A stretch of DNA of 58,188 nucleotides, filler included, from Sphacelaria rigidula (Eukaryota), in assembly GCA_964200075.2 (NCBI GenBank). It is 3 parts of 3 records of this genome, joined end to end, with 100 filler letters (N's around TTAATTAATTAA, not from the genome) between each part and the next. Parts side by side here need not be neighbours in the genome. Positions count along the whole stretch, not along the records: positions 1 to 19,338 come from CAXNAA020000685.1; 2 more parts are not named here. One strand, given 5' to 3'. This document shows positions 387 through 19,487 of this stretch, piece after piece (positions within the stretch are counted from its first letter, which is position 1; every line of letters starts with the position of its first letter). The notes below the pieces were generated by a model. It was not told the DNA's origin. It saw only the letters and a program-made list of their open reading frames with translations, and did no database searches. A program made the translations under genes and the position numbers.

Positions 387-1509
387 ATGACATTAATTGG
401 TGCGCAAACGGAGGACAAATCACGCCAACTGCGGTGGAAAGGCATGAAGTCGAACTTGCTCCCGTTTTGCAGAGGACCGCGCTAGATAGATACCGCCCGT
501 TCACAAAACCACGCAAGTCCCACACAACTCATTCTCAACTTACATTGCAGTGACCATTAACCGATAAAATCGCCCTCTTAGCATGACGTCGTGGTGAGTG
601 GTACGGTTTGTTTGAGACATGGTTTCCATTTTCTTGACATGGCGTTGGTTAATTCCAAATCAAGACATTTGAAAGATACCATAGAGTCCTTCGCTCGATA
701 AAATATTCAATGGAAACGATGATCACTGATGATGCAGGTCTTCGAGTACACCACCGGTGGACCGGGGCCATCGCCAACGCCCTCCCCCATGGAATTGCCG
801 TCTGGCGATGGTGTATGCTACGCGGACAAGCAAAACGCCCGCATCCTTCCCGATGCCAACAAGAACATCGGCGATCTGACCATTGCGGTATGTAATTAGG
901 GAAACGGAAGGGGGGAAAAGGGAACGAGATGAAAGGCATGTGGCTTGGTCGAACACCGACGTCGCGGGATATTGCGATGTGGATGGTCCATCTGAGTCGC
1001 GCATCATTTTTCTCAAGTGAAAATTGATGCCGATTCAGCACGTGATCTGCCCTCGCGGTCAAAGGGTCAACGCATTGGCCACCGATAAAACCAAAAATAT
1101 CGGAGAGTAATGAAATCGGCGGGCAAAAACGACAAGTCTCTCGAGTTGCTCGACACACCGGGTTTGACGGGTAAAACAATCGTTGCGCGAGTATTGCTGT
1201 TTGCCGTTTGCTGTGAAGTACCAATTCCGAAGTGTTCGGCTTGGATCGCCACTTTGAATTGTCCATCAACGCATGTAGTAGGCCGTGCATGATATAAACG
1301 CTTGTCTGTGTTGATATACCTTCGCTCCCTTTCAAGCCCCACGCGCGAGTGAACGGTCTCTGCGCTGTCATGCCCGGTTGTGTTCTCACTCGCTGAAGTT
1401 TGATTGACCTTCCATTCCCGTCGTTCTCCTATGGCCCGCGGACTATCGTGACACGCCCCACTCTCTCATCTCCGTGGTGGACGTGACCCCCCTGCTCGGC
1501 ATTCGACAG

Positions 1510-2157
1510 AGCTGCAAGGCCATATGCGAGGCCGACCCCACCAACGCCTTCTACGGCGTGCAGTACAGTAAGGAGGTGTGAGAAAAATGTTCACCATGTC
1601 CCCTTCATTCACCTACGACAGTAGATGAGTCTGTGCTGAACGCAAGAACTGATGTATATCTTCACGATAGAAAAACATCACGGAGTCATAACTCGATGTG
1701 ACGATATGTTGAGATAGTCGTGTGCTTTTTCTCCGTCAGAAACTCGATTCGTGATCATTGAAGATCAACGTCGCTGCTTCCGTTTCTCGTTCAAAACATG
1801 AACCCGTCGAACAAGGGTCAGCATAAAGAGGTGTTGTGAAAACCGGATTGAAACGGTGTTTTCGACTCACGACCTAAGTCGGACCTTCACCTGTTATCCG
1901 TTTGCACCACCGAATGTAGTTTACTCCCGCAACGTGTAGGCTGGCTCCCTCCTTGATTGACCACGAGTCCGCCGATCGTCTCTTTGACTTGATGCACGCC
2001 GCATTGTCCATCTCCTCTGCACTGCAGTGTTGGTGTGGACCCGGCACGAGCGACATCTCGCAACATGGACTGTCGACCGCGTGTACCATGCCTTGCAGTG
2101 GCAATGCGAATGAGATCTGCGGTGGCGGCAACGCCATGAACGTCTACAGCATCGGCA
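1510..2157 (+). other. WSC domain module 1 (C-terminal two exons)
   Basis: Exon 1510-1575 encodes SCKAICEADPTNAFYGVQYSKE. Exon 2028-2157 encodes CWCGPGTSDISQHGLSTACTMPCSGNANEICGGGNAMNVYSIG, with WSC cysteine spacing. Confidence 0.88.
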
Positions 2158-5100
2158 GTAAGTGGCAATATCTCAACGCTGGCGTTTCCTCGTTCCCTCA
2201 CATTCATCGAGGACACGCACCGCTTGTTTATGCCGGTTTCACGGTTAGGACAAATCATCACGCTCGAAGGCTCGAATCACCAAATCCACGGTTTCTTCGG
2301 CATGATTGCCCAAAATGAAGAAGAAGAACGTTGACCGCTGGTCCAAGGGGTATCCACGCTACTTTTGCGCCATTCCACGTGTCTGGGCTGCGTGTACCTG
2401 AGTTGCAACGCTGAAAACAAAGCCTGTAGGGATTGATTCGTACGATTCGAATCAAATTACACTAAAACCAAGTAATTTTGAGGCGAATCATTGATTCGTC
2501 CGACCTTTGGTCGGTTTGGCATCAGCAGAAACCTTTTGGTTTCGGAGTTTAGCCGCTTTAAAGTACTGCGCGCTGAAGTTGAGCTATAGTAAATTCACTG
2601 CTCTGTTGGACTTCGCCCAAATTAGTCCCGGGTGGTTCTCATGAAGTGTGATGTTTCACGACACGCTTTGTGAAAAAAAATTAGAACAATCGGTTGTCTC
2701 CGATCAGCCATGAGAAGAGGATGCTCGAAAGGATGATGTGCGAGCTGAGGTCCGGAGCGGATACAAAATGTAGTGAGGACGCCCAGTCCCCCGTCCTCCA
2801 TCGATAACGCAACAAGCAGTGGGTGATCATTGATGACCTCTTGATTGGAAAAAACGTTAAGTGCGCCAGCGGTGTGTGGCCTGCAGCTTGGCAGCAAACG
2901 GCGACCAAAAATAAGAGTCTATTCGACAGTAACTCACTGGTGGTGAATGATCGCTGCATCGTAAGCGTTGACATGTCACCTGGGCGGCGCGTGGTTTCCG
3001 TTTCCTCACCGCAGCCACACAATGCATGACCCCCCCCCCAAAAAAAAAAAACATTTTCGAGAGCAGAGTTGGGAATGTATTCACTTTAAACAAACATAGA
3101 TATGAGGAAACTGCGATGGCAGTATAGCGTAAAAACCATGCAGAGAAAATATTGCCAGCTATAGTTGATGGGCCTGCATGGAAGAATGGTACGAAAGGGC
3201 GTGCTATTAGGTGGGATAGAGAAGCCGAGAAATTGTGGAAGGAGATAGGAGGAAAACAAGGTGAAATACTGTCCATCGGTGAAGACGCGGGGCACAAGGC
3301 AAAAGTACGAGATATGATCGAAGTAAGGGAAAAAGGAGCGCTCGGATACGAGGTAAAGGAGAAAGAACACCTCGAGATATACGGGTAGTTGAGAGAAGGG
3401 ATCGGGATGAAAGCAGATTTGCATGGCCCCATGGACGTTTCGAACAATATGAAATTGCGATTTCGGGTGGAGGACGTGGACCTGCGACAAAGAACAGAGA
3501 GATGTACCAGTAGTCGAAAGGAGGAGGAAGAAGGTAGACAGAACTCCCTCTGTTGCGAAGAAATAGAGAGCATGAGTCATATAGTGGCAGAATGTGAACT
3601 GTACAAGGAGGAAAGGGACATGCTAGAGGGGGAAATGCGGGACGTGAACAAAGGTGGCATGAAATCGTTTGATGCATTGGACAGTAGGGAGAAAACTATG
3701 GCTATACTAGGAGATGAATGGTGACCAGAGACGGCGAAACAGGACGGGGATAAGGTATGTAGAAGGTTTCTGCGCAATGTTTGGAAGGAACGTAATGAGC
3801 GCCGGAATGTTGGAGTCGTCTCTATCAGGAGTAGGGATGGTGCTTCGTCTCGAAAGGGATGCGCGGTCAATGGTCAAACGACTAAGGTAAGCAACAAATG
3901 AGTACGCCCCCCCGCCCCCTACCTGGCGCCATGTCCCGACGCTCCCTTTGCGACAGGTTCTACACCTACTCCCGAACCAACACCTACTCCCGAACCAACA
4001 CCTACCCCCGAACCAACACCTACTCCCGGTTCCGTGAACCCTGGCGACGGTGATTGCTATGCAGACGCCCAGAATGATCGCGTGTTTCCCCAGTCCACAA
4101 AAGGCATTTCGGATCTGACCCCTGAGGTACGTGTACTGTTCCGTGTACGAGGGGGATGCGGAGTTGAATTCGGCGATGGTGACTGGTCGTACACGTTCGA
4201 ATTTAAATGTTCGGTCGGCATCAGTAGTAGTGAATAGGCAACGAAGGGGGGGGGGAATTGGGGAGGCTGACCCTTGAGGGTACTCGGCACCTTCTTGAGG
4301 CCTACGCGTACGAATGAGAAGGTATGTGGGGTGCACCCGGCGACATAGCTCTTGATTAAAATCTCTGCAAATTGTGGTGATGGGAACGCAGGGGCGGGTT
4401 GACTCCCCGCTGTCACATTCGACCTCATCGCAGCTGTACCAACATACCTACTAGGAGAGTACATGCCTGGGCGTTGACCGGACTGACGCACATTTTTACG
4501 AAAGAAAAGGTCTCCGAGAAATCGAGTTTCCCCCTACAACAGTGGGGGAGCAAGTCTGCGCCATGAATGTGACCAGGGTCATTGTGGTGCTGAAGAAAAA
4601 AGCGGGGCGTTCCGGAAACAAGTTCCCTGTATACACCGGTCAACAATCCATACAGCTCGTTGATGGTTCTCCTTTTGAATATGCTGCTTTGTCGTGTTCT
4701 GTGTCTCCTTTGGTTGTATCTCCTTTGTTCGCCATGTACGATAGAGCTGCAAGGCTCTCTGCGAGGCTGACTCTACCAACTCCTACTATGGCGTGCAGTA
4801 CGGGAGCGAGGTGCGATGACGTTATCGGACTGATGCGTCGTTTTCTCCGGTTTGTCGCGTGTCTCGAGTTCGTCACAGTTGGTGTGAGGATGCCTCAATG
4901 TGATTGCGGAACTCCGTTAGCCTCCCGGATTCCCGTCGTTATTGCGCGCATCATAGCTTAGTTTTTAGCACTTTCCAGCAGAGTACCCGCGTAACCACGT
5001 GGGGTTCCAGGGCACGTAAAGATGGGGTTGGATCCTTCAGAGTTTGTTAAATCGTTCTTGCCACGGTATTTCTAGTCTGTGGTAGCCACCTCTGGTGTTG

Positions 5101-8100
5101 ACTTCTAGTGAGTACCCCTCGGCGAAGGCAATACAAGTGCAGAAGTGCAAGATATATGTTTTGTGTTGGGCTTGCCATTGCCTGTCTTGCCCAGAGGAAC
5201 GCGTCTCAAGGTCAACGTTACAGTGCTTTATGTACCGCATTTCCTCACGACCACGGCTGTTCGGTGGTGGGTGGTGGGAGTCCACCGTGCCCCGAAGAAA
5301 CGTCGCTCCCACGAGAACACTCAGACACAAGGTAGTATCGCCTTCAAGACGCACCAGTGACGGGTATACCTCGGAGATTATCTGCCGTTTTGGTTTCGAC
5401 CCATACTTGTTTGACCCCTTTGGCTGGGTCGCTTGCGTCTGCTCTATCCACGATGTACTTACTACCTTTGCAGTGCTGGTGCGGACCTGCCTCGAGCGAC
5501 ATCGACAAGCACGGTCTGTCTACCGCATGCACCAAGGCTTGTTCCGGCGATGCGAACGTGATCTGCGGCGGCGGTAACGCCATGAACATCTACAGCATCG
5601 AAGGTATAAATTACATTCGACAACGGGGGATGATTGATGAGGCAAATGCTGCCCATCGACTGCCTGGTCTTCCCTAGCTTTTTTAAGACATCGGGCTTCG
5701 CTCTACTCCAAAAGGTGCGGCTCGAACCCCCTCTCACCTTCAGTAGCTCTACAATCTAACATTCCTTTCGCTCCGGCCCTCGCCTGCGCCCCCGCCCCCG
5801 CCCCCGCCCGATTCTTGCATGCACATTTGCCCCACTCGCTCCCCATTACCCTAGCTTCCGGTACTCCGCCCTCCTCTCCGACTCCAGCCCCAAGTACCCC
5901 AGCTCCCGATACTCCGCCCCCCTCTCCTACTCCAGAGCCAACTAACCCTGTCACTCTGCCACCCTTTGGCGGTGGGGTATTGCCTACGGTGTTTGTGGAC
6001 CTGGTTCCCTGCATCCTTACTCCTGGAGCAATTGTGAGTTAGTACACGGTGATGAAAGTGGAAACGAAGTCATTTTGCATGTGCATACTGTGGCAGGCTA
6101 GCTTGTCGATTATTGATTAGTACATTTGGGTTGTCGATGTCGCGGGATAGAACGAAGCAAAATGGCAATTGCGAGTGAGGTTTAGCCGGGAGAATGCGTC
6201 ATGTTCGCAGATTTCACGAAGATTGTCCCAACCTCGTAACTAGAACGGGTTTGTTGTACTCAGCCATAGTTATTGTAATGAATAGTTGCACGCGAAATGG
6301 AGCCCTCGGATAGTCATCTGCCTGAATCGTGCAGCCGTCATCGTAAGCTTGTATCTTGGCTGTTCCGCCTGCATTTTCACTTTTTCATTTCGCTTGCATT
6401 TTCGTCTGACGTATCTTGTGCACCTCTTGCGGTCTGCGAACGACCAGACCGAGGCTACCGCGGGCCCCTACATGTTGGAGATATTCTACAAAGGTTATTG
6501 GTCGGGCGCTCCGGTGAGCACTTGATCACGGTGTCAAACGCATGTCACGGGGGCCTGTCGTACATTATAATCGTACTTGTAATTGTATCATGCTGAGCCG
6601 GTCATGATGGCATCATCACTCTGTTCCCCGAGCACATTTGAACGGCATTTTGTTCAGTACCACTGTTAGGCCGTACTCATGACCTCGACTCAGTAACCGT
6701 CTCCATGATCAAGACCTCCCCATGTCTAGCGACTAAAGGTTTGTCGACGTCATCCGAATGCAGATTATTATTGTTGCTCCCGGGGACGACCTTCTGACGG
6801 AGCTGACGATCGATACTGATCACGGAAAGTGCAACACCGTGTACGTGGGATTGCCGGCGACTGACGCCCAGTTTGCCGCTCTGTCCGAGTACTCCTCCAC
6901 CTTCAAGGCTCGAATTGTGTACCTGGACGTTTCTGAAACGTCGGTGCATCCTGATTTCACGACGAAGCTTGGCATCGAGGCGTACTGGGCGGGAGACCTG
7001 TTGTCGCCTTCAGCCATCGGACTGACAGGTGAGTGAAACACATTCCCTGCGTGGTTGCTGTTCTGTATTGGTCTCGCGGATGCTGTCCAAGCGTTTGCTT
7101 ACCAGAAACCGGTACTTGTCCACGATCACCTTGTATGCATAATGATTCCATGATCGCGTTCGCTGTTCCAAATCAGCCCGATCACCTAGAGAGCGTCCCT
7201 GCTGGTGCTGTGGCATCCTCCTTCGTACGTATTCTCAATTGATTGACATGCGCTTTTCTACTGACGTGTATTTTTGACGCCTTTTGTGCTGATGGATGCT
7301 GTTTATCCGTACGTGCTTCTTCAACAGCTGAGGGTGCCGCCGGCGCGAGGATTGTGAACTCGGGCCTGCAGACCGACCCTGCTGCGAACAATCTATTCAC
7401 CCGGCCCATCCGAATCACGGGAGCCACTCCTGGTACCACGCCTGTTGCCGAGTGAGTATTACAGCAATCTCCAACTCAACGGCCTTGTGTTGTGCGTCGA
7501 AGGTAGTGGTGGATGCTGCAAAACACTACACCTTCCCACCACGCTTGTATGAAGCACACGAGCACTGATGGAATAACATCGTGGGTGGTGTATCCGGCAG
7601 TTTATGGCTTCGTTGATCGCACGGTAGTGGTGTGAAATAAATTTGGCACCGTGATGAAATATATACACAGTCTTCAATTTTGCAGTACGTACAAGTCTTA
7701 CGAGGGGGCTCATTGCAGTTGAAGCGGCCAAGATGTGCCGCCTTAGCAATCAATGTTTTATGACTATATCGGGATGGATCAGTTGGCCTGCCGCCAGCAA
7801 TATGAAACTGTTCACGCCGAGAAATCCTTTGGAGGTCGATGGTGGAAGTCTATTAGGCGAATGGCTCCGCCGCTACCTGCTGTCCTTCGATGCAGTGTCT
7901 GATGGCTACGCCAAAGTTACTCTCCACAACACGATACACGTGCTATTTTGCTTTCTGCAGTGCTCTCGTGCACTCTGCAAGTCGGCTGTCCATGACCAAG
8001 TACAGCCCCGCCTCCGGAACGTCACGCCTGCCAGTTGGTGCGGAGAACTTGAACTCCAAAGGACGCGGTTGTTGGGAAGAGTTTGACGAGGAAAATTTTC

Positions 8101-11100
8101 CAACAATTCCAATCTTTTCAAATCGCACTTCTGAATTTCTCGAACCCCATAGGACATAACCTTGGGTCGACATGTGTGATTTGGCACCAGCTGACGAGAC
8201 ATTTTATGAGTCATGACGTGCAGAGGGTAGGTTTCTGGAAACCGTGTAGTTGTAATGTGTCGAAAAACTTATCCGCGCTTTGGTCTAGTCTGAAGATTTG
8301 AAACATTACATTGCAACAGTCGTGGCTGTGCTCGGTTTGTATAGAGATGAGGTCTGCCCGCACCGCTTGGAAGCTTCGGAGTACCCCAACATCGTTGGCC
8401 GCCAGTTGTCATGTAGGAGACCACTGCAGGTGACGTCAAAACCGAACGCATATCTTGCACCTCGTTCTTGTGCGTGCCCTTCATGTGCCGTGTCTTGCAC
8501 AAGGTACCTCGACGGATCCGGGACACCGATAACAAGCGACGGCTTCCCTGGCGTGGCAATGATGGAGTACAAGGATGCCGCCACAGGTCTCGAAGAGTTG
8601 CACGTATTCTTTTCCATCGGGTGGTTCGACCTTGGCTCGTGGGCATGGCTGCACCACATCGTGGAGTGGGCTACTAAGGGTGTGTTTATGGTAAGATATG
8701 GTTTCTGTCGTTCGGGAGTAATAGTTCTCAAAGATTTCCCGATGTGGATGCAGAAAAAAAGTTCTCGGTTCACGCATCAAATATCCTGTACTGCATTCAG
8801 ATCCTCTTTCGACGGTTCGTTTTCCTCTTTGAACGGCTTATTTTCCCTTGAAGTCTCCCCCCCCTCCCCCACGTCTTTCGCCCATTGTAACCCGACCTCG
8901 TCTATATTTGTGCCCCAACCGACGTAACGTCAACACCAGGGAGAGCGCCGTTTCTACCTGGGAGCCACGGTTGATGACCTGTTCCTCGCCACCAACGAAT
9001 TCAAATACGATGGCTTGTTCAACGAGGGCACGGTAAGTGGAAGATGTGTTGTCGCGAACCCTTGGAGTAATATCTTGCTGATTGTTCGGGTTGTCCGTCG
9101 AGGGTCTTGTGAAGTTCTATCGCGGATCTGAGCGCACTACGGCATGTTATTCATAACCCGCCTTTCTGTGGGTGCCACATGGTTTAATTGAGGATGCCCT
9201 TGTTGAAATCATCCCTGAACTCCCGAATCGTTCCGGCATTTCGTGCCCTCGCCTCCGCGTATTAACATATCAACCGCTCACGTTAACGCGTGTTTTCGAG
9301 CTCAACCTCTGATCCTCCTGCTTTTCCCCCGTGTATTCCTCCCGCTGTCCTACCCGCTGGTGTTGTGCCGTATGTGCGTCTCGCGGTTGACGCCACACAG
9401 GCGTACAGATGTTCAGCTGCGGACTACAAGAAGATGATCGTTGTGCAGGATGATCTGAACAACCAGTACTCGTCCGAAATCATCACGGAGTACGCCTTCA
9501 ACGGGGCTGGTATCCTTCAAGAGGTGAGTATGAAAATGAGCTACAATAAATCACGGAGGATATTTTTACTTCAGCGTGCTCCAACTCCGTCGCCCCCGTC
9601 AATGAAATATAGATGTCGTTACGGACAAGGATTCAGCCCTTTATTCTAGGTGGAGCAGAGTCTCTCAGGCTTAGGCTGTTTTTGAAGTTGTCATCAGCTG
9701 ACAGCTGCGTGCCCATGTTATCTTTCCACGAGTCCACATCGGAGTCCATAGAAGTAAAGCGTCGACCTCTGCTACCGTGCGTATATGGTTTGTGTCGTTG
9801 TACATGGTGAGGCCAGGATCGGTGACAGGGGGTAGGATGTCCAAAGAACCATGACTTTGACCCTCAAAATGTGTTTCACGACGTGTATTCTTTGCAGAAC
9901 AAGGTGAGGCTAGGAGGGGTGAAGAAGAGGGCGGGTGTCGAGGAAGAGCATTGCGCTCCAAGCTTACGTAAATTAAATGTTCGCGATAGCGAAGATGCAA
10001 TGACGCACGGTCGTAACTGAAGAAGGAATGCTCGTTTTCAGTGAGATCTTATTACATACTCTCCGTGGAAACGTGGTGGATTGCTCGACCGAGTCCTCGC
10101 GTTCGTTTCGGCGATCACTGCGGCATTCTGCTTGCCGAGATTGTGCAGTTCTATTCCTGGCCCGGAGATTGTTCCCTCGCGAAGTCGCTCGTAGCCCCGA
10201 TGGGAGTAGCGTGCTAGCGTGTACGCAGCGATGTATCTCACTACCCTAGCTCACCGCCTCCTTACGACCGCGTGCTTCAAAATATAGGTCGGTTCTCCGT
10301 ACGTACCTCCGTACGAGGAGACGATCGTCACTGTCAAGGGGACAAAGATGACACCTCCTGGTGAGTTCGGCGCGTGACTCGCTCGTTCTATTTGCTTGGA
10401 CTGCTCACACGTGTTCCAAAATTTTCATGCTGCGCACGTACTTCGGTATTGCGATGAGGGGGACTTCTGGAGATTTGGATTTTGTTCGCACGGAGGGTAA
10501 TCTCTCCGTGCTTCCGCCCATCCATTACGCACCCTTATCGCTGTTTGTCGGTTGCTGATGTGCCCCGCCCTCATGACTTTGCTCCATGTACGGTCTTATG
10601 AGCGCGACGCTGTGGCCGGTGATTATTGAGGGCTCATCTCGGGTCCGTTTTCAGCTCTTCGGTTGGCGTCGTTCATGTCACCTCTGGCGGTGGAGTATTC
10701 TAGTTTGGTCCACCACCGGTGCTTGGTGGTATTGGTTGAGCCATGCCTGCCCCCCCCCCACCCCGCCCCACATATACACACACACACATATGCGCGTTGC
10801 AGGCCTACAAAGCGTGGTTATTCCAACGGACTACCTGAGCGTTACCGTACCCCTCATGGAGGCCGAGGCAGCCGCCGGTGATTGGGACAGTGACGCTCTG
10901 CTCCAGGCGGTACTAGCTTACCCCAACGATGGCTTCCATGGTAGTCATACCCTCACACATCTTTCTCGCGACGAGCTCCAAGCATCAGACTGCAACGCCG
11001 AAGACGGAGGTATGTACGCTGCGTGTAGAGCGGCATAAAGTTGGGAGAGGGAGGGAAGAGAGGGTGTCATCCCCGTGCATGCGGTCACGGAAGGGTCAAC

Positions 11101-14100
11101 AAATATTGACCCATGAGCGAGTAAGCGTGTTGGGAGGCTGAGCACCTATGGAAGGGGGCAAGGGACTGGACCCGAGTCTGAAAACTGTGTAAGAAGCTTT
11201 GTTTTCATGTACTCAAGTCATTCTTGGTCGGGGTTCGTGGTCTTGTCCTTCAGTAGTGCGACCATTTATTCACTGTGTTCGTCTACGATTTTTGCATTTC
11301 TCATCGTGAATTACGTGAGCAAGGACAAAACCGTAATTTATCCACAAATACTTCCAGTCACTGAACGAATGAAACCAACACATTCGGTTATTTCTCACTT
11401 TGAGACCATGAGCAGGGATCAGCATGAGTAAAACAAAGAACACTCCAAGGGTCTGTCGCGGAGACCTCCACCTGCCCCCCCCCCCCCCAATTTTTCGAAA
11501 ATTGTCGGGATTGTTTCTTTTTTTCAACAATGCCACATATAATATATTCGTACGGCCTACGTGTCCAGAAAGCTTTCTTCGACTGATCCTTGGTTATCAA
11601 GGAAGGGATCAATATCCCTCCTCGTGAACGAGCTATACGGGATATTACAGCAGGATCAACATCAGTTGACACGTGCAGTGATTTTCCTTACGACTCTGTT
11701 TTTTTACTGGGGCACGTGTAACCTTCTAGGAAGCGAGGGAGGGCAACTGTGGCACGTCCCCTCACGCCAACCACGTTCATGATGTACCGGTCGCAAATTC
11801 GTATTGGTTGATTCCCTTCCGAAACGTGGTGTCGTGGACATCAGATCGCCATTTTGGCTGTTTTCTTTTGCGCATTTTTGAATGTGCTTTTGCGGCGTGC
11901 TTTTGTTCACGCTGCCTCGCCGAACGTGCTCTCGCTCGACGTGTTTCTTGTCTTTTCAACCACCAACGCTTCCCCCCACACGCAGCCAACGCACGGATCG
12001 CGGTGTTTTCGGGCATGTTTGACATGGACACTTACAACTGGCGGAGTATGGTTTCGCCGGGTATCACCGGTCTCTTCAACGCCAACTGTCTCATGTCCGG
12101 TGAAGCCAACCTCATGACTTGCTACCCCGGTGACAACACGTACGATGGCATACAGACCGCCGTAAGCCTTGTCAACGAGGACAGCCAGTTCCACTCCATC
12201 TACACCACCGTGGCCACAAACGGTGAGAATTCGCTAGAAAGCGCTCAAAATACTGTGGTGTGCAGAACGAGAGAGTTGGCCTTTGTATTCAAATCAACTT
12301 CCGCCGAAGGTGATGAACGCTTCGCGACGTCTGATATTTCGCCTATCAAGGAAAGAGGGGAAGGAAAGGGGAGCAGTGGAGTGCAAGTTATTTCGAAATA
12401 TGGTTGACCAAAGACAGCTAGTTGTTTCGACCTGACGTCTTCCTCTTCGGACTCTTGCCGCCGCGCATGTTGATACCATTACAAACTAGGGCACGCTGGC
12501 ATGCAGATCGTGCCCCGCTTCGCAACCTTCGTCTACTATAACTGTGTCAGCGGCAAGGTAAGCGGGGACTTGAGCCGGGTGGAACCAGGATATCGTATCG
12601 CTATCCAGTTACGATCTGTGGGGTGCTGGAAGTATAGTTCCCAACATGTCTGTGGTGAAGTGTCGACTTGGCTCGTCATGGGTGACCACTGCCTAATATA
12701 AACGTCTAGCATGATTCCTCTTTTCGAGCGCTCAAAAATGTGCTCGTCAGCCGTCTCCCGTTACATGACCCTGTCGTTTGCTGTTGATGTTTTTGTTGCT
12801 GTTGTTGTCGTCCTTGTCGTCCCTGTTCGGTTTTCACTCGCATGGTTTGCCCGAGAACTATTAGTGCCTCGTGGATGAAAACGAATATATCAGGCGGATT
12901 GTCTGCGGCTGCTCGGAGCTGGACCCCACCATACCGGACCGTGGGGTGAGGAATGATGTGGAGGCAAACGCTTTTTGTGTTTCAAAATGTTTTCTTTTCA
13001 ATGTCATGTATATTGTAGTGTCCAGTGCAGGTCGACAAGGGCAGCTCCACCATCGAAGTCATTCTCGGCAATTGTGTGGGAAGGTTGCTCGTTGGTGACT
13101 ACGTCTTCGTTCCCTTGCTCTGTGGTGTTTTGTTGCTTGTCGCACACCCTTGAGCAGACGTGCTCGAACGTCGGCTCCGTGTACGGCTGCAACAGCGATG
13201 ATGACATTGCTTCCTTCGGTTCCATCGACGCTATTTTCAAGACCGAGGCTGAGACCACGACGCGCTACATGCTAATGGGTCGCAGGTATGCGAAGGCATG
13301 TGATTCAGATTTTTGTGCTCAGGCAAGTCTTATCGAAGACGATCACTTTTGAAAACATATCATCCTGGTAGACACTTTGCCTTCACTACGACAACATTTG
13401 AGACTCGCCAGATTTGTCCAGGTCGAACTCCAGATCTCCAACGAGGGTCACAAATGTGGTGGTTCTGGAGTTGGTCGCTAGTCCCATCATTTCCGAAGCA
13501 ACGCACCACCGACACACTGAGGTCGGAAAACAATGCTCAGACATCCACCACTCACGCGCATCAGCCGTAGTGCTAGCTCTTGTTCATCTAGTCGCGGCAC
13601 TCTTCGTTTTATGGTATTATGTATGTAGTTGGAGGAACGGCGGCCGCGTGCGTGTCAAATTCAAACTGAAAGCGTGTCGTTGCTGAGCGGATGTATGCAT
13701 GTAGTGTGCGCGCGTCCCACAGACGAACCATCGACTGTGAACACATTTGAGCTACTGTAGGTCACGTCCAACGTGCTCAGCTGACGAGCAGCTACACTAC
13801 CGCACCAACCGTGTGCTTTTGGTTTGCAGGGGCATCGCTATCCTCAGGGTCACGTTTGACTTGTCAAGCCTTGCATGTGCCCACATCAATGAGATGCTCA
13901 TGCTACCGTTCGAGGTGTCACAAAGTCACTTTTGCAAAGCGATATCAGGAAGTGCATTTTTCCTGAAATTACTCTCCAAAACAGTTGTTTCGGGGCATTT
14001 TTTCTAGGGGGATGTGTTGTCTCGCGTCTAATCACCGAGCGTTTTATCCCCCGTTTTTTTTGTTTTTCAGTGACAACCGTCTTCGATGAGTACCGACCTC

Positions 14101-17100
14101 AGCTCTTAGGGGAGGACAGACTGAGCATGACTAGTAGCCTCTGTGCAACGGCCCGATGACAACATGTGCTCTTCGCAGACCAATGCTACGGTAGGGCAGC
14201 ACCTTCTGCGCAAAATGTTTTCTGGTTCGGGGGCCCCTAACGATTCTAGATACACAAAAATATGGGTCAGGGCATCCCCGTTTGCAAATTCATTCGGGAT
14301 ACTGTACCCCTCGAACATTGGAATAGCAATCCTGGTCTACTCTCATATATTTCATTACTCGTCGTTTGGATGAGATGCAGGGTTAACAAGGTGTGACCTC
14401 AGAAAATACTCGTGCACCCCTACCGTAGCATCACTCCGCAGTTGGGATGGTACTTCGCCACCCTTTGAAAATGACGTGGACGCGCCGCTTGCCCCATTCC
14501 CCTCTGACGTGCTCGGTGCTTGCTCTCCAAAATTTTGTTCTTTCGCCAAAAACAGGGACAAGTACATGTTCCACCAGGCCAACATTATCCCGACTGCCGA
14601 CCTGGGCGACATGTCCACCCTGGAGAAGTGGTACGTGGACGTCATGGCGACCCTGTCCAGTTTCGTCACCTTCCCCGTGAAGGTATGGCTTATTTCGCGA
14701 CGTCCCAAAGTAACCCTTTTTGACTCGAGTAAAGCGCTCAAGGCGTCTACTAGCGGAAGTGTATTGGTGACTGTGCTACTTCGAAACTTGTTTCGCTGCC
14801 TCTTGGGGTCCATCACCGGCAACTACGCTCTCGCTCTTACACAATCCTGGGAGTCCTTTGGTGATTTCATCCCATCGAGAGGGCATGGAAATGCCTGAGG
14901 CAATCGCCAGCATGAAGGTGATGAGCTCTACCGTTGAACGTCCAAAGCATCAATCTGACCTCGCTTCCCTGGTATTCCCTGGTATCTCTGAACGTGCAGT
15001 CCGTCAAGTTCGACGACCTGTGTGTGAACTTCCAAGAGCACGAAGCATTGGATGCCGACAGCCCTATCGTTACGGCTATCAAGGACGCTGACACCGGTAT
15101 TATCCTGGGCATGAGTCTGGATTCCACCGGCGGCGCGGGTGTGATCCCGGTCACCGTACCCACTGCCGACGCTGCCAGCGTGAGTCTGCTACCTGTCTAT
15201 GTTCTGCGTGTTCCTGCTTTGATGTCCTTCGTCCTGGTGTACCAAGTTTTATTTTTGTCCCGGTTTCTCATTTTTGGGGTCGTTATTTTTGTATCTAATT
15301 CTCTGCCTTGAAGTTTTGTGACTATTATTATTTCCGCACATCAGTCCGATCTCGCGCCCCCGTGGTAACAGAGGTAGGCTCGCCTTTCCAATACCGTTTC
15401 CAGCTATTCCTTGTGAGACACATCACCAAAAAAATAAATAAGAAGAGAGACGAAAACCGGTGAGAAGTGGCTTCCCCGAGTTCAACAGGGAGAGAAAAAA
15501 TAACGAAAGAAAAACAAACACACAAACAGCAAACACCAGATCTGTCAAAAATGTACACCGAAAGAAAGCAAGAGATGCTTGTCTAATCAACGGGACTGCC
15601 TGCGGTTTTGTACCTTCCCGTACCTTCCTGTACCGCTCAGTAGATCGAATGTGTGGTTGCCTGTGCTAGCTGACAACAATCCACTTCCCGTTCTTACCCC
15701 GACGATATTGTGGCGGTTGACTCCTGCAAACCAAACGTGTGTGCTCGCAGGTGTTCCTGGGGAGCTTGACCCCCTACAAAACCGAAACGTACGGTTCGGA
15801 CACTACCTACTACTTCACCACCGGAACGCCACCCTCGCCTGCGCCCAAGCCTACCGCGAGGTACGTAAATTATCTGCAGTTGATCGTCGTCTACCGAAGG
15901 AATTGTTCTTCGTTGGGTACAGATGTTTGGTCGCGATGAGGAGTACGGCATAGCCGCCAAAGTTTCGGTGGAAATGCGCGAAAATGACATGAGAGATGAG
16001 CTACATCCGTCGTACGCCAGTAGGTTCGATGCTCGCCGTGTGTTGTGGGGCGAGTTGGCTCCGTGGTGTAAAGTTGCAAGTGTAAGCTTTTTGTGTTGGT
16101 GGAGTGGCATTTTGTCTTTGTCCTCTCGTCAGCGCCACTCATCACCGTCCCCCGTCGATCTTAACCTCTAGAAATTGAGACATGAGTACTTGACACAAGC
16201 GTCGGCTGGACACATATTTCGACCAATTATAGCGGGTCACGGACTCACAAGCCGTCGGGGAACCTACAGAAGTACAGGCCGTAGTTTCCGCTCTTTGCTA
16301 TTTACGCTACATACAATCGATCCGGATGGTCACCATATACTAACAACGACTCCCCCTCGAGAAACGGAGTTCTACTTCGTATTATTTCAACACCATGAGC
16401 GTGGGAACCGTGTCCCGCGCACGACCTGATTCATACTGCGCCGACTTTCAAACTTCCGAGATGAGGTGACGAATCGTATGAGCGAAAACGCCGCGCGGAA
16501 CAAAGGCCACTCTTGACTCGCCGTATTTGCACCCATCGACCAGCTATTACGTCAAGATACAGCGGGAAAGCACACTACCCGCGTCAGCCTTTTCGAAACT
16601 TGCAAAACACAGTCAAACTTCCATCCGCGAGCCTTGGTCACCGGAAAACACGGCACTTGGAGTTCGGTGCACGGGTCTGCCAAAAAAGTGTAGTTGAACT
16701 TGGAGTGGTGCACCGTCTTGGTGGGCTCCATCGTTGATGGTTGCAGAGAAATAAACCATATGTTGCCCGAAAAAAGGTCAAATAGTGAATCGTCATTTTC
16801 CCATCACCGTCTCCGGAAGGGTCAAACTTTAGTTGTTCATTTGAACTTGACCGACGCGTGTGCAGCCCGACAGCCCTACTAACCGTTCCCATCCCTGCCC
16901 TCTCCTCGCGTCATATCCACTTCAGCGACCTTCCGCCGCTCACGGCGGCGGCAGCCGGAGACGCCGTACCGATCCCGGTGGAGGAGCAAGAAAAGGCCGC
17001 CATGGACGGCATCGAGGCCGAGCAAGAGAATGCCGCTGTAGCTGGCGAGCAGGGCTTCGTCGCGCCCGACCAGCCTCTCCTCGGACCCGAAGCCATCGAG

Positions 17101-17160
17101 CTCCTCAAAGAGCAAACTATGGAAAGAATAATCGAAAAGGCCGCCGACCCCGTCCCTTGA
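1510..17160 (+). CDS. Multi-exon gene (5' part not seen): WSC-WSC-Pro/Thr linker-Agd3-like (CE18-type) polysaccharide deacetylase, ~1014 aa visible
   Basis: 22 exons with AG/GT boundaries whose phases join into one open frame of 3045 nt ending in TGA at 17158-17160: 1510-1575, 2028-2157, 3957-4126, 4745-4810, 5474-5603, 5855-6033, 6448-6513, 6764-7028, 7328-7451, 8504-8690, 8940-9032, 9401-9523, 10288-10360, 10803-11009, 11986-12222, 12490-12557, 12865-12945, 13158-13285, 14556-14682, 15000-15179, 15751-15860, 16926-17160. The translation has WSC signatures (YGVQYxxECWCG...CSGxxxxICGGGNAMxxY) and Agd3-type motifs (WATKGVFMGERRFYLGATVDDLFL, EYAFNGAG, SHTLTH, SPGITGLFN, GDNT, IVPRFATFVYYNC, DKYMFHQAN, FPVKS, ETYGSD). 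No start codon or signal-peptide exon was found in 1-1509. Confidence 0.88.
3060..3915 (+). mobile_element. 5'-truncated LINE (non-LTR retrotransposon) 3' remnant inside intron 2
   Basis: Decayed reading frame with in-frame stops: ...HLEIYG*LREGIGMKADLHGPMD...KLRFRV...CCEEIESMSHIVAECELYKEER...AILGDEW*, resembling a LINE ORF2 C-terminal CCHC-type knuckle. A homologous copy lies at 31090-32030. Confidence 0.7.
3957..5603 (+). other. Pro/Thr linker + WSC domain module 2 (three exons)
   Basis: 3957-4126 encodes (TPTPEP)n...GDCYADAQNDRVF...DLTPE. 4745-4810 encodes SCKALCEADSTNSYYGVQYGSE. 5474-5603 encodes CWCGPASSDIDKHGLSTACTKACSGDANVICGGGNAMNIYSIE. Confidence 0.88.
3962..4027 (+). repeat. Coding 18-bp tandem repeat encoding (TPTPEP)n linker
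   Basis: acacctactcccgaacca repeated ~3.7 times inside exon 3957-4126. Confidence 0.9.
8940..14682 (+). other. Agd3/CE18-like metal-dependent deacetylase catalytic region
   Basis: TVDD at 8967-8978, HTLTH at 10946-10960, PR at 12513-12518 and MFHQAN at 14566-14583. The order matches the Asp-Asp / His-x3-His / Arg / His motifs of fungal Agd3-type deacetylases (recalled family motifs, no alignment run). Confidence 0.78.
14178..14436 (+). mobile_element. MITE family B (Sola2-like), copy 1, intronic
   Basis: TIRs gaccaatgctacggtaggg ... cccctaccgtagcatcactc, with 4-bp TSD cgca on both sides. The internal sequence is shared with three other copies. Confidence 0.8.
16877..16883 (+). promoter_or_regulatory. 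Consensus splice branch point TACTAAC of the last intron
   Basis: tactaac lies ~42 nt upstream of the CAG acceptor at 16923-16925, with a pyrimidine-rich tract between them. Confidence 0.6.
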
Positions 17161-19079
17161 AGATCCGGACACGACCGAATCGCTTGCCACCGCGACACCC
17201 ACCAATGCTGTCGCGTACATGAGCAGACGTACACTGCATGTACTTTGTACCAATAACGACCCAGTCGCGCCTCATCAGCCCAGCCGTAGCCCACTCGGTT
17301 GCCTTGGTTGAATGGCTTGCTTGGTAATTTGCATGTGCCATACAGATTCACAGGTATCATTCAGGTGGAGGAAAATAAAGTACATGGAGGGAAAGTAGCC
17401 GGTTGAGCACGTCCGTGTGTGTTCATGCGTATGGTGTAGGGTTTATGTGCGGGTATCACGAGCGGAGGCAGCTGGTCCAGTTTGCGTGGACCATCCCCCT
17501 GCTCAGGGGGTGCAGTGGGTCGTGTACGAGGCCGGGATCATAGAGAGCCTTTGCTTCCTGTAACAAGGAATTTAGAGCAGTGTGCAGCTTGAATGCATTC
17601 GTATGAATTCGAATATATATCGTTATTGACATGTTGTGCCCGCCCTCTTCACCCTCCCCTTCCCCAGTTCTTTTTGGTCGTGGGCTTCCCCCGGACTGAG
17701 TGTTTCGGGAGGGGGTTTAGTATCGTATGGCGAGAAGTAGGGCGACTGATGGCTTCAAAGCGATATGGTAGTGCGTGCCGTTATTGAAGTAGTTGGGTTA
17801 TGTTGAATTATAAAAGTAGAGGAATCCGCGAGGGGCAGGGGCCCTTTTGGTCGCTCTTTTAAACGCCGTTCTTGGGCGCGTTACGTATGGATTTCTCCAT
17901 GCTAGTGTCTTCAGGAGGATGTCGGGTTTCTGTAGAGACGGAAAAACCTTGCCAGTTTTTGACAACTAGGAGGAAAATAGTTGCTGTCGGGTTTTGCTCA
18001 TTGAAATTGTGTGAACTTGGAGGTGGGTCTGTATCTTCGAGGTTATGTTGTATTCTAGTATTGTGTTTATAAAGGATTGGTGCCTGTGCCTCGTCAGGGG
18101 AGGAGTAACGGTAAACGTGTTCGAGTGATAACCTACGCAGTATCCTCCAAGGTATTTCTTGCCGGTTCCTGCTACTCCGTACGCACCTGGAGAATTCTTG
18201 ATTCTGAATATAGAAATTGAAAACCTGACGTGCCGGGTATGGCGTCGGGGAGTAGTTGTGTTTTGTTTTGAAGCGAAAAGCTTATTTTTATTTCTCCTTT
18301 TGGATGGGGGGCGGTTCTGGTCGATTCTGCGGTTTTGGTGACTGATCCGATATGATGGTGCGTCCCATTGTATGTTCGAGAAGAGTTCTGGAGTGCCCTA
18401 TTTGTTGCAGTACTGTAATGCACCGACTCCTTGTCTATTGGCAATTAACTGATGAAGACCTCTGTAACTACTTGCAGGTGTGTGCTTGGACACGCATCAT
18501 CGTTAAGGCGCGCCGTAAGGTGACGCTGATCGGAACCCTCTCCTTGATTCCACCCGCAATGTTTGGATGGGCATGGGAACTACGAAACCAACAATAACAA
18601 AAAATGACGAGTATGGTAACACCAGGTCATCCAGGGTACCGACTGCCAAGAGTGATTAGCATGCCATCACGATTCTACGCACAAACCATCCCAACTCGAT
18701 AGAGTGATCTAGGAAACTGAATCGAGAGTTACAAACGACCTCCACTTTCCAAATGAACGTCCTCAATCATAGAAGTGTTCTGTCAGATCCTGAACCAAGA
18801 GTATGTTGGGCGAAGATTTTCCGACACGGAGCCCCTTTCCCCCCTCCCGGAGGGTATATAGGATCATGTTCCGTGTCGTGGGCCTCAAGCACCGAACAGT
18901 GGTCCGGGCAAGTTTGGCGAGGTGTGAGATAAAGTTGCTACTTTTGCTACTGGCTGTCGCTACCGTGCGCTGGTGTACGTACATGTTCAAGGCCGGCATC
19001 CGAGGTCATCGGAACAGTAGAGTGGGCAAGGAGCAGAAGCGAGTATACAAACCTCGCGAAGCCCACAAAACGTTTCAAT

Positions 19080-19438: not shown

Positions 19439-19487
19439 ATTTACGTGAAGATTTTGCCTCTCAAAACCATGCACTTTTTTGGGGGGG

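What the first reader, a model, noticed from the sequence alone, without database searches (positions are those of the whole stretch)
1510..17160. Agd3-like (CE18-type) glycan deacetylase fused to tandem WSC modules in an apparent brown alga
Seen: 22 exons splice into one frame with WSC modules, Pro/Thr linkers and a large region carrying GERRFYLGATVDDLFL, EYAFNGAG, SHTLTH, SPGITGLFN, IVPRFATFVYYNC and YMFHQAN. Known: this motif series is characteristic of Aspergillus Agd3, the secreted metal-dependent deacetylase of alpha-1,4-GalNAc in galactosaminogalactan. WSC domains are an expanded wall-associated family in brown algae, whose walls are described as alginate, fucose-containing sulfated polysaccharide and cellulose. 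Inference: this is a probably active, wall-tethered de-acetylase in a lineage with no GalNAc wall polymer that I know of. It could act on an unrecognised hexosamine glycan, on acetylated fucans, or on exopolysaccharides of microbial colonisers. The dense intron structure argues for a long-resident host gene rather than contamination. The ORF track shows only fragments of it.
Basis: partly seen in the sequence, partly recalled or inferred. Interest (0 to 1): 0.85.

Follow-up and report, generated by a model that had tools for sequence, protein, structure and literature searches.

The report
Brown-alga WSC-linked Agd3-like sugar deacetylase gene
This is a real, spliced and transcribed brown-alga gene that joins wall-binding WSC modules to an intact-looking Agd3-type sugar deacetylase; the family is already listed in public databases, but nobody has said what sugar it works on in seaweeds.

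Summary
On the + strand, 23 GT..AG exons (738-17160) splice into one 1064-codon frame that is open at its 5' end. RNA-type contigs from four runs of one study support 16 of the 22 junctions, including the join between the last WSC exon and the linker/deacetylase exons.

The protein has two WSC modules with eight Cys each, Pro/Thr linkers, an Agd3-like core and an acidic tail. All seven residues shown by mutation to be needed in Aspergillus Agd3 are present: D523, D524, H656, H660, R765, M852 and H854.

The spliced protein scores 304 bits against a profile of 32 non-brown-algal Agd3_CE proteins. An AlphaFold model of the Ectocarpus homologue matches Agd3 (6NWZ) at TM 0.82.

The fusion is not new to databases. 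WSC+Agd3_CE proteins are already recorded for Ectocarpus, Scytosiphon and Pylaiella, where they form a multigene and partly tandem family. I found no paper discussing them.

The substrate is unknown. Published GH114 expansion in brown algae, and paralogues carrying a GH114-associated domain, hint at an alpha-1,4-GalNAc-type glycan. O-acetylated fucans and microbial exopolysaccharides remain rival substrates.

Verdict: a new member of a known kind, of moderate interest.

The parts
738..887 (+). Exon 1 of the model. Pro-rich start plus the first third of WSC module 1. The frame is open at its 5' end.
Evidence: AG acceptor and GT donor, in frame. No RNA joint was listed for it.
1510..1575 (+). 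Exon 2, the middle of WSC module 1.
   Evidence: Supported by frame and homology only.
2028..2157 (+). Exon 3, the last part of WSC module 1.
   Evidence: Pfam WSC 30.0 bits (cut-off 27.8) on ORF piece 1920-2318. tblastn hits.
3957..4126 (+). Exon 4. Pro/Thr linker plus the first third of WSC module 2.
   Evidence: Contig pieces of X7 and X9 lie on 3957-4124 and run on at both ends (table 8). Frame.
4745..4810 (+). Exon 5, the middle of WSC module 2.
   Evidence: 53 of 66 nt identical to exon 2.
5474..5603 (+). Exon 6, the last part of WSC module 2.
   Evidence: Pfam WSC 22.9 bits, below the cut-off. Joint 5603|5855 seen in 4 of 4 runs. 100 of 130 nt identical to exon 3.
5855..6033 (+). Exon 7. 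Pro/Thr/Ser linker and the start of the Agd3-like core.
   Evidence: An 881-nt contig lies on 5853-6033, 6763-7024, 7324-7451 and 8504-8689 with no other letters in X6 (table 8), and joints 6033|6448 and 6513|6764 carry exon 8 (table 5).
6448..6513 (+). Exon 8, in the CBM87-like domain.
   Evidence: Joints 6033|6448 and 6513|6764.
6764..7028 (+). Exon 9, in the CBM87-like domain.
   Evidence: Joints. Weak Pfam CBM87_Agd3 hit, E 0.051. tblastn 40-49% identity.
7328..7451 (+). Exon 10.
   Evidence: Joints 7028|7328 and 7451|8504.
8504..8690 (+). Exon 11, the end of the CBM87-like part.
   Evidence: Joints. tblastn.
8940..9032 (+). Exon 12, carrying catalytic motif CM1. D523 is codon 8973-8975 and D524 is codon 8976-8978.
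   Evidence: Joints. Residue mapping.
9401..9523 (+). Exon 13 (EYAFNGAG).
   Evidence: Joints. Pfam Agd3_CE profile positions 16-68.
10288..10360 (+). Exon 14.
   Evidence: Joints 9523|10288 and 10360|10803.
10803..11009 (+). Exon 15, carrying CM2 (HxxxH). H656 is codon 10946-10948 and H660 is codon 10958-10960.
   Evidence: Joints..
11986..12222 (+). Exon 16 (SPGITGLFN).
   Evidence: Joints. Pfam Agd3_CE profile positions 167-237. Up to 82% identity to brown-algal proteins.
12490..12557 (+). Exon 17, carrying CM3. R765 is codon 12516-12518.
   Evidence: Joints. Pfam profile positions 233-253..
12865..12945 (+). Exon 18.
   Evidence: Joint 12557|12865. The donor at 12945 was chosen by alignment score and agrees with the X8 loose end, which equals the first 9 nt of exon 19.
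13158..13285 (+). Exon 19.
   Evidence: Joint 13285|14556.
14556..14682 (+). Exon 20, carrying CM4. M852 is codon 14566-14568 and H854 is codon 14572-14574.
   Evidence: Joint. The donor at 14682 was chosen by alignment to P0006..
15000..15179 (+). Exon 21. End of the CE domain and start of the C-terminal beta domain.
   Evidence: The acceptor at 15000 was chosen by alignment. Joint 15179|15751.
15751..15860 (+). Exon 22. C-terminal beta domain and a Pro-rich stretch.
   Evidence: Joints. 89% identity to P0006.
16926..17160 (+). Exon 23. Acidic tail, with the stop codon at 17158-17160.
   Evidence: Joint 15860|16926..
17161..18460 (+). Probable 3' untranslated region.
   Evidence: A 1493-nt contig lies on 16968-18460 in X6 and X7 (table 8). 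Contigs cannot show the true RNA end.

Best explanation
Window 738-17160 (+) holds most of one transcribed brown-algal gene; its 5' end probably lies upstream of the window. The product is a secreted multidomain enzyme.

Domain order:
- at least two WSC modules, each built from a duplicated three-exon unit and each with eight Cys;
- Pro/Thr linkers;
- a three-part Agd3-like core: a CBM87-like beta domain, a CE18 (beta/alpha)-barrel catalytic domain and a C-terminal beta domain;
- an acidic tail.

Proposed mechanism, by analogy with Agd3: D524, H656 and H660 hold a divalent metal that activates water. D523, held by R765, acts as the base. H854 acts as the acid. The acetyl group of a sugar residue in a long polysaccharide lying in the CBM-extended groove is removed. 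The WSC modules hold the enzyme on wall polysaccharide.

Shown here: the gene structure, the splicing, the domain order, family membership and conservation of the catalytic residues.

Inferred:
- secretion, because full-length homologues start with signal-peptide-like sequences;
- catalytic activity;
- wall docking by the WSC modules;
- the substrate. My best guess is N-deacetylation of a hexosamine glycan of the alpha-1,4-GalNAc type in the alga's own matrix. I put about 0.35 on that substrate class.
For: Gene and splicing
- 23 exons give one 1064-aa frame, and all introns are GT..AG.
- 15 joints are present in 4 of 4 runs of one study, and one more junction is supported by a loose end.

Family membership
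- Pfam Agd3_CE hits four exon pieces colinearly, at profile positions 16-68, 167-237, 233-253 and 290-340.
- The spliced protein scores 303.9 bits (E 1.1e-94 at Z=1, residues 352-975) against an HMM of 32 non-brown rows; 0 of 200 shuffles reach E<=10.
- All 56 of 56 rows of alignment A1 match Agd3_CE.

Catalytic residues
- In the P0013 versus 6nwz_A alignment the chain index is offset by 122 from full-length numbering.
- The roles of D377, D378, H510, H514, R613, M666 and H668 come from passages of PMC7229062.
- Mapping onto the window protein gives D523, D524, H656, H660, R765, M852 and H854.
- The same columns are invariant or at least 90% conserved across the 56 sequences, which are 21-88% identical to P0013.

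Fold
- The P0013 model has pLDDT 85.3.
- Agd3 6nwz_A is the top PDB match: E 4.8e-42, TM 0.82 normalised to the target, 764 aligned columns.

Secretion
- The N-termini of P0049, P0041 and P0008 look like signal peptides. I read this by eye and ran no predictor.

Substrate hint
- GH114, the alpha-1,4-galactosaminidase family, is among the most populated GH families in brown algae and is reported as amplified there (passages of PMC11468063 and bioRxiv 10.1101/2024.02.19.579948).
- 3 of the 47 brown-alga-type homologues listed carry a GH114_assoc domain together with Agd3_CE.

Wall-binding fusions
- Non-brown relatives carry CBM_10 (3 rows) or CBM_1 (1 row) on the same core. Fusion of a wall-binding module to this core therefore recurs.
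Against: - No activity, metal or substrate datum exists for any brown-algal member.
- The Pfam HMM itself could not be run on the spliced window protein. Each single exon is below Pfam's cut-off (best 22.8 bits against 27.6).
- None of 4 single exons finds Agd3 in the PDB by phmmer.
- The fold test used a homologue that is 54% identical, not the window protein. The geometry of the metal site could not be inspected.
- CBM87 and Agd3_C are not recognised by Pfam in the brown-algal proteins checked: none of 8 at E<=0.01.
- No signal-peptide exon was found in 1-737.
- I found no report of a GalNAc/GalN wall polymer in brown algae.
- No GH114-type or other partner gene was found in this window. The test was limited to tblastn with the 84 fetched proteins.
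- The WSC-to-linker joint has only 31 letters on its WSC side, and a close paralogue shares that exon almost exactly.
Confidence: 0.7

Rival explanations
1. Same gene and fold, but the enzyme is an O-acetyl esterase that trims the O-acetyl groups of the alga's own fucose-containing sulfated polysaccharides or other acetylated matrix glycans. The WSC modules place it on that matrix.
For: O-acetylation of brown-algal fucoidans is documented, for example random acetylation and 2-O-acetylated fucose in Chorda filum (passages of PMC6245444). The related metal-dependent Pel deacetylase PelADA shows esterase activity on an acetoxymethyl-umbelliferone pseudosubstrate (passages of PMC13254593). This reading needs no undescribed polymer. 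The family is large and old in brown algae, as expected for an enzyme that acts on a major wall component.
Against: The only characterised CE18 enzyme de-N-acetylates alpha-1,4-GalNAc. The next-best structural matches are also N-deacetylases: NDST1 at TM 0.44 and PelA. The GH114 expansion and the GH114_assoc fusions point to galactosamine-type glycans.
Confidence: 0.2
2. The enzyme acts on foreign polymers. It would deacetylate Pel/GAG-type or chitin-type exopolysaccharides of bacteria, fungi or oomycetes settling on the thallus, as part of surface defence or biofilm control. The WSC modules would keep it at the algal surface.
For: The known substrates of the CE18/GH114 toolkit are microbial biofilm polymers. 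No endogenous GalNAc polymer is known in brown algae. The family forms tandem, expanding arrays: five Ectocarpus proteins with near-consecutive accession numbers on one 3.84-Mb contig. In my general knowledge such arrays are common among defence genes.
Against: Deacetylation makes GAG more adhesive rather than removing it (passages), so it would be an odd defence step on its own. The catalytic core is conserved across all brown-algal subfamilies, including early-branching Discosporangium and Choristocarpus, without the diversification expected in an arms race. Nothing on induction by microbes was examined.
Confidence: 0.15
3. The protein is a non-catalytic glycan-binding protein, a pseudo-deacetylase used as a lectin or wall sensor.
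For: WSC proteins are described as wall sensors in yeast (passages of PMC11333212). CE4 pseudoenzymes exist; one (6hm9) appears at rank 47 of the fold-search list.
Against: All seven residues whose mutation abolishes Agd3 function are kept in the window protein. They are invariant or nearly so across the 56 relatives. No membrane-spanning segment suggests a sensor: the strongest hydrophobic stretch, around residues 279-297 (Kyte-Doolittle 19-residue mean 1.8), lies in a conserved, confidently folded strand region at the start of the Agd3-like core.
Confidence: 0.05
4. The finding is an artefact: contaminating fungal or bacterial DNA, or two neighbouring genes wrongly joined.
For: The 5' end is missing. 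The RNA status of the runs is only a guess. The WSC-side anchor of the key joint is only 31 letters.
Against: There are 22 GT..AG introns. The nearest relatives are all brown-algal, at up to 85.5% identity over 462 aa to a Sphacelaria rigidula protein. The protein sits inside a brown-algal clade with 100% support. A brown-alga-typical EsV-1-7 gene lies in the same window. 13 of 50 homologues listed have the same WSC+Agd3_CE order.
Confidence: 0.02

Closest known systems
Aspergillus fumigatus Agd3 (PDB 6NWZ), the founding member of CE18 and CBM87
   Same: Both have the three-domain core: a beta-sandwich CBM, a (beta/alpha)-barrel CE domain and a C-terminal domain. The homologue model matches at TM 0.82. 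The four catalytic motifs are present with all seven tested residues. Both are expected to be extracellular.
   Different: Identity is only about 21%. Pfam does not recognise the CBM87 and C-terminal parts in the brown-algal proteins. The window protein adds N-terminal WSC modules, Pro/Thr linkers and an acidic tail. It has 22 introns. No GAG-type gene cluster is seen around it in the window. Its substrate is unknown.
Ectocarpus siliculosus CBJ25809 / CBJ25804 / CBJ25803 (P0023, P0049, P0013) and the Scytosiphon and Pylaiella WSC+Agd3_CE proteins
   Same: They share the domain order of WSC repeats, Pro/Thr linker and Agd3-like core, and are 51-54% identical over 817-945 aligned residues. They fall in the same WSC-bearing subfamily, which has 100% support in the tree. 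The exons are colinear.
   Different: The window gene is the sister of the Ectocarpales members, not one of them. The number of WSC modules differs: 1-3 in the homologues, at least 2 seen here. The database entries are named only 'conserved unknown protein', 'WSC domain-containing protein' or 'Agd3 deacetylase domain-containing protein'.
Sphacelaria rigidula unnamed protein P0006 (463 aa)
   Same: It is 85.5% identical over 462 residues to window residues 596-1063, including the acidic tail. It is probably the orthologue in a related species.
   Different: It is a partial gene model that lacks the WSC modules, the CBM87-like part and motif CM1.
Brown-algal GH114_assoc + Agd3_CE proteins (P0026, P0058, P0059)
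   Same: They have the same Agd3-like core, are 48-49% identical, and sit in the same brown-algal clade.
   Different: They belong to another subfamily and carry a GH114-associated domain instead of WSC modules.
Human NDST1 N-deacetylase domain and the bacterial Pel deacetylases (PelA, CE21; B. cereus PelADA)
   Same: All are distant structural relatives with the metal-dependent DD/HxxxH chemistry.
   Different: The fold match is much weaker, TM 0.44 for NDST1 and 0.23 for PelA. They belong to different CE families according to PMC13254593 (passages).

Membership tests
CE18 / Pfam Agd3_CE (PF25115) | Significant profile match over the catalytic domain | tested here: met
   Four exon pieces hit colinearly at E 5e-5 to 0.15, each below the 27.6-bit cut-off on its own. 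The spliced protein scores 303.9 bits against an HMM of 32 non-brown rows; all 56 rows of the parent alignment A1 match Agd3_CE. Homologues 48-54% identical score 109-158 bits over profile positions 2-363 of 366. The Pfam HMM itself could not be run on the spliced protein.
CE18 / Pfam Agd3_CE (PF25115) | CM1: adjacent Asp-Asp (catalytic base and metal ligand; Agd3 D377/D378) | tested here: met
   D523 and D524, codons 8973-8978. These columns are invariant in all 56 of 56 sequences.
CE18 / Pfam Agd3_CE (PF25115) | CM2: HxxxH metal ligands (Agd3 H510/H514) | tested here: met
   H656 and H660 in the sequence HTLTH. These columns are at least 90% conserved.
CE18 / Pfam Agd3_CE (PF25115) | CM3: the late Arg that holds the base (Agd3 R613) | tested here: met
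   R765 in VPRFAT. The column is invariant.
CE18 / Pfam Agd3_CE (PF25115) | CM4: Met-x-His with the catalytic acid (Agd3 M666/H668) | tested here: met
   M852 and H854 in YMFHQAN. The His column is invariant and the Met column is at least 90% conserved.
CE18 / Pfam Agd3_CE (PF25115) | Agd3-like three-domain fold | tested here: inconclusive
   Met for the Ectocarpus homologue P0013: pLDDT 85.3, and 6nwz_A matched at E 4.8e-42, TM 0.82. The window's own spliced protein could not be folded with these tools.
CE18 / Pfam Agd3_CE (PF25115) | Asp-His-His side chains converging on one metal site in 3D | not testable with these tools
   No model coordinates are handed out.
CE18 / Pfam Agd3_CE (PF25115) | Metal-dependent de-N-acetylation of alpha-1,4-GalNAc | not testable with these tools
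   This needs an enzyme assay.
CBM87 (PF25116) | Profile match to the Agd3 CBM87 domain | tested here: not met
   There is only a weak hit on exon 9 (E 0.051, 13.8 bits against 27.6). None of the 8 brown-algal proteins lists it at E<=0.01. 31 of 56 alignment rows match it; the per-row list was not given. At the level of fold, the Foldseek alignment runs to 764 columns (gaps included) against the 665-residue Agd3 chain, with a target-normalised TM of 0.82. I therefore describe the domain as CBM87-like in fold, not as a shown member.
WSC domain (PF01822) | Profile match and eight conserved Cys per module | tested here: met
   The exon-3 piece scores 30.0 bits, above the 27.8 cut-off. The exon-6 piece scores 22.9 bits, below it. 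Each spliced module has eight Cys, read from the translation. The modules align to the WSC repeats of P0049, P0023 and P0008, which score 90-152 bits.
GAG/Pel-type exopolysaccharide system | Deacetylase encoded next to a synthase, hydrolase or epimerase partner | tested here: not met
   tblastn with all 84 fetched proteins, including the GH114_assoc carriers, gives no hit in the window outside about 1500-17200. The only recognised neighbour is an EsV-1-7 gene. The whole genome is not held, so partners elsewhere were not tested.

The most novel reading that the evidence does not exclude
Brown algae make and remodel a so far undescribed, partly deacetylated alpha-1,4-GalNAc/GalN (GAG/Pel-like) matrix polysaccharide.

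The remodelling set would be the CE18 family, fused to WSC or GH114-associated domains and tandemly expanded, together with the amplified GH114 family.

Deacetylation would create a polycation that binds the polyanionic alginate and fucans, for example in adhesion or wall cross-linking.
Probability: 0.25. Interest if true: 0.85.

Novelty: new member of a known kind. Interest (0 to 1): 0.45.

Why it matters
Brown-algal walls are described as alginate, fucose-containing sulfated polysaccharides and glucans. Here an enzyme family whose only characterised member turns a GalNAc polymer into a cationic adhesive is intact, expressed, old and expanded in brown algae. It sits beside an amplified GH114 family.

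That is a concrete lead that either an amino-sugar polymer has been overlooked in seaweed matrices, or that these enzymes have taken on a new substrate such as acetylated fucans.

Both ideas can be tested directly with recombinant protein and sugar analysis. The two CAZyme surveys I could read do not mention CE18 or Agd3 in their main texts.

Tried and rejected
- Whole-genome search: no genome is held for this window. The search for Uge3, Gtb3, Sph3 or Ega3-like partners could therefore not be done.
- RNA runs: the look-up of sequencing runs listed no holder on record as RNA. X6-X9 are RNA by the tool's guess only.
- First read-laying run: it failed on a short piece between N runs. It was repeated on 1-19300.
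- Single exons against the PDB by phmmer: 0 of 4 found Agd3. They are too short and too divergent.
- Start exon with a signal peptide in 1-737: the only candidate is a 12-codon ATG..GT piece with no convincing hydrophobic core. The 5' end is left open.
- Three loose-end consensus strings were looked for in the window and not found. They probably come from paralogous transcripts that share the WSC exon.
- My guess that the intron pieces around 3389-3724 (+) and 19488-21335 (-) are retroelement fragments got no Pfam support: 0 families for 9 of 10 ORFs scanned.
- Earlier notes of this scan: nothing for this genome or for the words searched.
- Literature searches: 'Agd3' + 'brown alga' gave 0 papers. 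'CE18' + 'Ectocarpus' gave 0. Six UniProt identifiers of the Ectocarpus proteins gave 0. 'Galactosamine' + fucoidan terms gave 59 papers; the two I opened mention galactosamine only as an analytical standard or as a liver toxin.

Full report
WHAT IS THERE

The window is eukaryotic DNA at about 50% G+C, with no long bacterial-type ORFs.

tblastn with brown-algal proteins gives a colinear series of hits from about 2000 to 17154. Using those hits, canonical splice sites and RNA-type contigs, I built a model of 23 exons from 738 to 17160. The stop codon is at 17158-17160.

- Exons are 66-265 nt long (median 128).
- Introns are 212-1799 nt long (median 447), and all are GT..AG.
- The coding sequence is 3195 nt and gives 1064 codons with no internal stop.
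- Exon 1 (738-887) is an addition.
- The frame is still open at 738, and no start exon with a signal peptide is found in 1-737. The gene very probably continues upstream of the window.

TRANSCRIPTION AND SPLICING

No run is on record as RNA. Four runs of one study that the tool guesses to be RNA hold 15-22% of the sampled words, roughly the exonic share of the stretch.

Laid on 1-19300, they give 15 listed joints. All are GT..AG, each is present in 4 of 4 runs, and they correspond exactly to 15 of my 22 introns. A 16th junction (12945|13158) is supported by a 9-letter loose end in one run that equals the start of exon 19.

An 881-nt contig lies on 5853-6033, 6763-7024, 7324-7451 and 8504-8689 (exons 7 and 9-11) with no differences in X6. 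Exon 8 (6448-6513) is carried by the joints 6033|6448 and 6513|6764. The joint 5603|5855 ties the last WSC exon to this chain.

That joint has only 31 letters on its WSC side. Loose ends at 5472 show that at least one paralogous transcript shares this exon almost exactly. The link is therefore good but not beyond doubt from RNA alone. The identical domain order in many homologues backs it (see 'Relatives' below).

Six junctions have no listed RNA support: introns 1-5 and 14682|15000. A contig runs from 16968 to 18460, which suggests a 3' UTR of about 1.3 kb.

THE PROTEIN

Reading the spliced translation, the order is as follows.

- A Pro-rich start.
- WSC module 1 (exons 1-3).
- A Thr/Pro/Glu linker.
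- WSC module 2 (exons 4-6).
- A Pro/Thr/Ser linker (exon 7).
- A region of about 700 residues homologous to Agd3.
- A Pro-rich stretch and an acidic, helix-prone tail.

Each WSC module has eight Cys. Each is encoded by the same three-exon unit (150 or 170 nt, then 66, then 130 nt, with the same phases). Exon pairs 2/5 and 3/6 are 53 of 66 and 100 of 130 nt identical, which shows a tandem duplication of the unit.

Pfam WSC reaches its cut-off on the exon-3 piece (30.0 bits) and falls short on the exon-6 piece (22.9 bits). No N-glycosylation sequon is present.

The strongest hydrophobic stretch (residues 279-297) is a conserved segment at the start of the Agd3-like core, and its counterpart is confidently folded in the homologue model. 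I do not read it as membrane-spanning.

IS IT AGD3-LIKE?

Pfam Agd3_CE hits four exon pieces in colinear order, but each is below the curated cut-off on its own. Single exons do not find Agd3 in the PDB (0 of 4).

The tools do not accept a spliced sequence, so I tested the whole protein in a script. An HMM built only from 32 non-brown-algal relatives scores the window protein at 303.9 bits (E 1.1e-94 at Z=1) over residues 352-975. None of 200 shuffles reaches E<=10. These relatives include chytrid, ascomycete and Physarum proteins. All 56 rows of the parent alignment, including these 32, match Agd3_CE.

The Ectocarpus homologue P0013 is 54% identical to the window protein over 817 residues. 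It matches Pfam Agd3_CE at 1.2e-44 over profile positions 2-363 of 366 and Agd3 6nwz_A at 1.8e-22.

In that alignment the chain index plus 122 gives the published numbering. According to passages of PMC7229062:
- D377 is the base.
- D378, H510 and H514 are the metal triad.
- R613 holds the base.
- M666 is required.
- H668 is the acid.

Changing any of these residues abolished function in that study. The window protein has D523, D524, H656, H660, R765, M852 and H854 at these positions. The same columns are invariant or at least 90% conserved across 56 relatives that are 21-88% identical to P0013.

An AlphaFold model of P0013 made with that alignment has pLDDT 85.3 and pTM 0.84. Its best PDB match is Agd3, with E 4.8e-42, TM 0.82 on the target and 764 aligned columns. 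Human NDST1 (TM 0.44) and PelA (TM 0.23) follow far behind.

So the whole three-domain Agd3 architecture is kept, even though Pfam does not recognise CBM87 or Agd3_C in the brown-algal sequences. I could not inspect the metal-site geometry because no coordinates are handed out. The fold evidence is for a homologue, not for the window protein itself.

RELATIVES AND EVOLUTION

The family is well represented in brown algae. One search lists 50 homologues, and 13 of them carry WSC+Agd3_CE. Named sources include Ectocarpus, Scytosiphon, Pylaiella, Sphacelaria, Undaria, Hapterophycus, and the early-branching Discosporangium and Choristocarpus.

A Sphacelaria rigidula partial protein is 85.5% identical to the C-terminal 462 aligned residues. 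It is probably the orthologue in a related species.

In Ectocarpus siliculosus, five members have near-consecutive accession numbers (CBJ25803, -04, -06, -07, -09) and lie on one 3.84-Mb contig. I read this as a tandem array. The window itself holds only one copy.

A quick maximum-likelihood tree of the catalytic region (57 rows, 387 columns; SH-aLRT support only) gives the following:
- All brown-algal rows, plus five unnamed rows, fall in one clade with 100% support on a long stem (1.45).
- Inside it, a WSC-bearing subfamily of 9 rows also has 100% support.
- The window protein is the sister of the Ectocarpales members within that subfamily.

The WSC fusion therefore predates that split.

Another subfamily carries a GH114-associated domain instead of WSC: 3 of 47 listed, confirmed by Pfam for P0026. 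Outside brown algae, the same core is fused to CBM_10 (3 rows) or CBM_1 (1 row). Adding a wall-binding module to this core has therefore happened repeatedly.

HOW IT MOST LIKELY WORKS

I commit to a secreted, matrix-located, metal-dependent polysaccharide deacetylase. The WSC modules would dock it on wall polysaccharide, and the CBM87-like domain would extend the substrate groove, as in Agd3.

- Secretion is inferred from signal-peptide-like N-termini of full-length homologues. I read these by eye.
- Activity is inferred from the intact catalytic set.
- The substrate is the open point.

For an alpha-1,4-GalNAc-type glycan:
- It is the only known CE18 activity.
- GH114, the alpha-1,4-galactosaminidase family, is among the most populated and amplified GH families in brown algae (passages of PMC11468063 and of bioRxiv 10.1101/2024.02.19.579948).
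- Some paralogues carry a GH114-associated domain.

Against it:
- I found no report of such a polymer in brown algae.
- No partner gene lies in the window.

The main rival substrate is the O-acetyl decoration of fucoidans, which is documented (passages of PMC6245444). A second rival is action on microbial Pel/GAG/chitin-type polymers at the algal surface.

NOVELTY

The gene is a new member, from a further species, of a family already present in public databases with automatic Pfam/UniRef labels. What seems to be missing is any discussion in print:
- 'Agd3' + 'brown alga': 0 papers.
- 'CE18' + 'Ectocarpus': 0 papers.
- The six UniProt identifiers: 0 papers.
- The two large brown-algal CAZyme and genome surveys do not mention CE18, Agd3 or deacetylase in their main texts.

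The searched library also lacks most subscription journals. For all papers cited here I saw search listings and passages only, not whole texts.

VERDICT

The interesting part is the unanswered substrate question and the parallel with GH114.

Noticed in passing
window 46926-48230 (+): A 434-codon open frame with six EsV-1-7 cysteine-rich repeats (Pfam PF19114, E 1.1e-86). From recall, this family is typical of brown algae and their viruses. It supports a brown-algal host genome.
   Followed up: partly
window 1933-4508, and 96-112 joined to 3841-3898: Summed contig depth is very high (6,000-26,000, against roughly 20-800 in most bins over the rest of the gene). This region covers exon 3, intron 3 and the area around exon 4. 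Odd joints with inserted letters link the first 112 bases of the window to 3841-3898. It looks like a highly transcribed repeat family with two partial copies. Pfam found nothing in ORFs 3389-3724 (+) and 2857-3576 (-).
   Followed up: partly
window 5472-5500 (exon 6 boundary): Contigs in X6 and X7 match from 5472 onward but continue upstream into a different WSC middle exon that is not in the window. A close paralogue is therefore transcribed and shares this exon nearly exactly.
   Followed up: partly
P0026, P0058, P0059 (brown-algal proteins, not in the window): These proteins join a GH114-associated N-terminal domain (PF14741) to the Agd3-like core. This is a second fusion type in brown algae, linking the CE18 and GH114 themes.
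   Followed up: partly
alignment A1, non-brown rows: Agd3_CE homologues outside brown algae carry CBM_10 (3 rows) or CBM_1 (1 row). The nearest named non-brown relatives are chytrid fungi, Dactylellina, Physarum and one MMETSP transcript.
   Followed up: partly
window 19339-19438 and 38771-38870: There are two pairs of 44-N runs, each pair separated by 12 bases. They are assembly gaps.
   Followed up: no
window 56899-58188 (+), open at the window end: A 430-codon open frame rich in Gly, Ser, Asp and Pro. It has no Pfam match and may be a low-complexity coding exon or chance.
   Followed up: partly
window 195-384: This stretch matches its own reverse complement at 70% identity over 191 bases (self-blastn), so it is an inverted or palindromic repeat in the first intron-like region.
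   Followed up: no
window 19488-21335 (-): Three adjoining open frames of 169-235 codons on the minus strand. They looked retroelement-like to me, but Pfam gave no family.
   Followed up: partly
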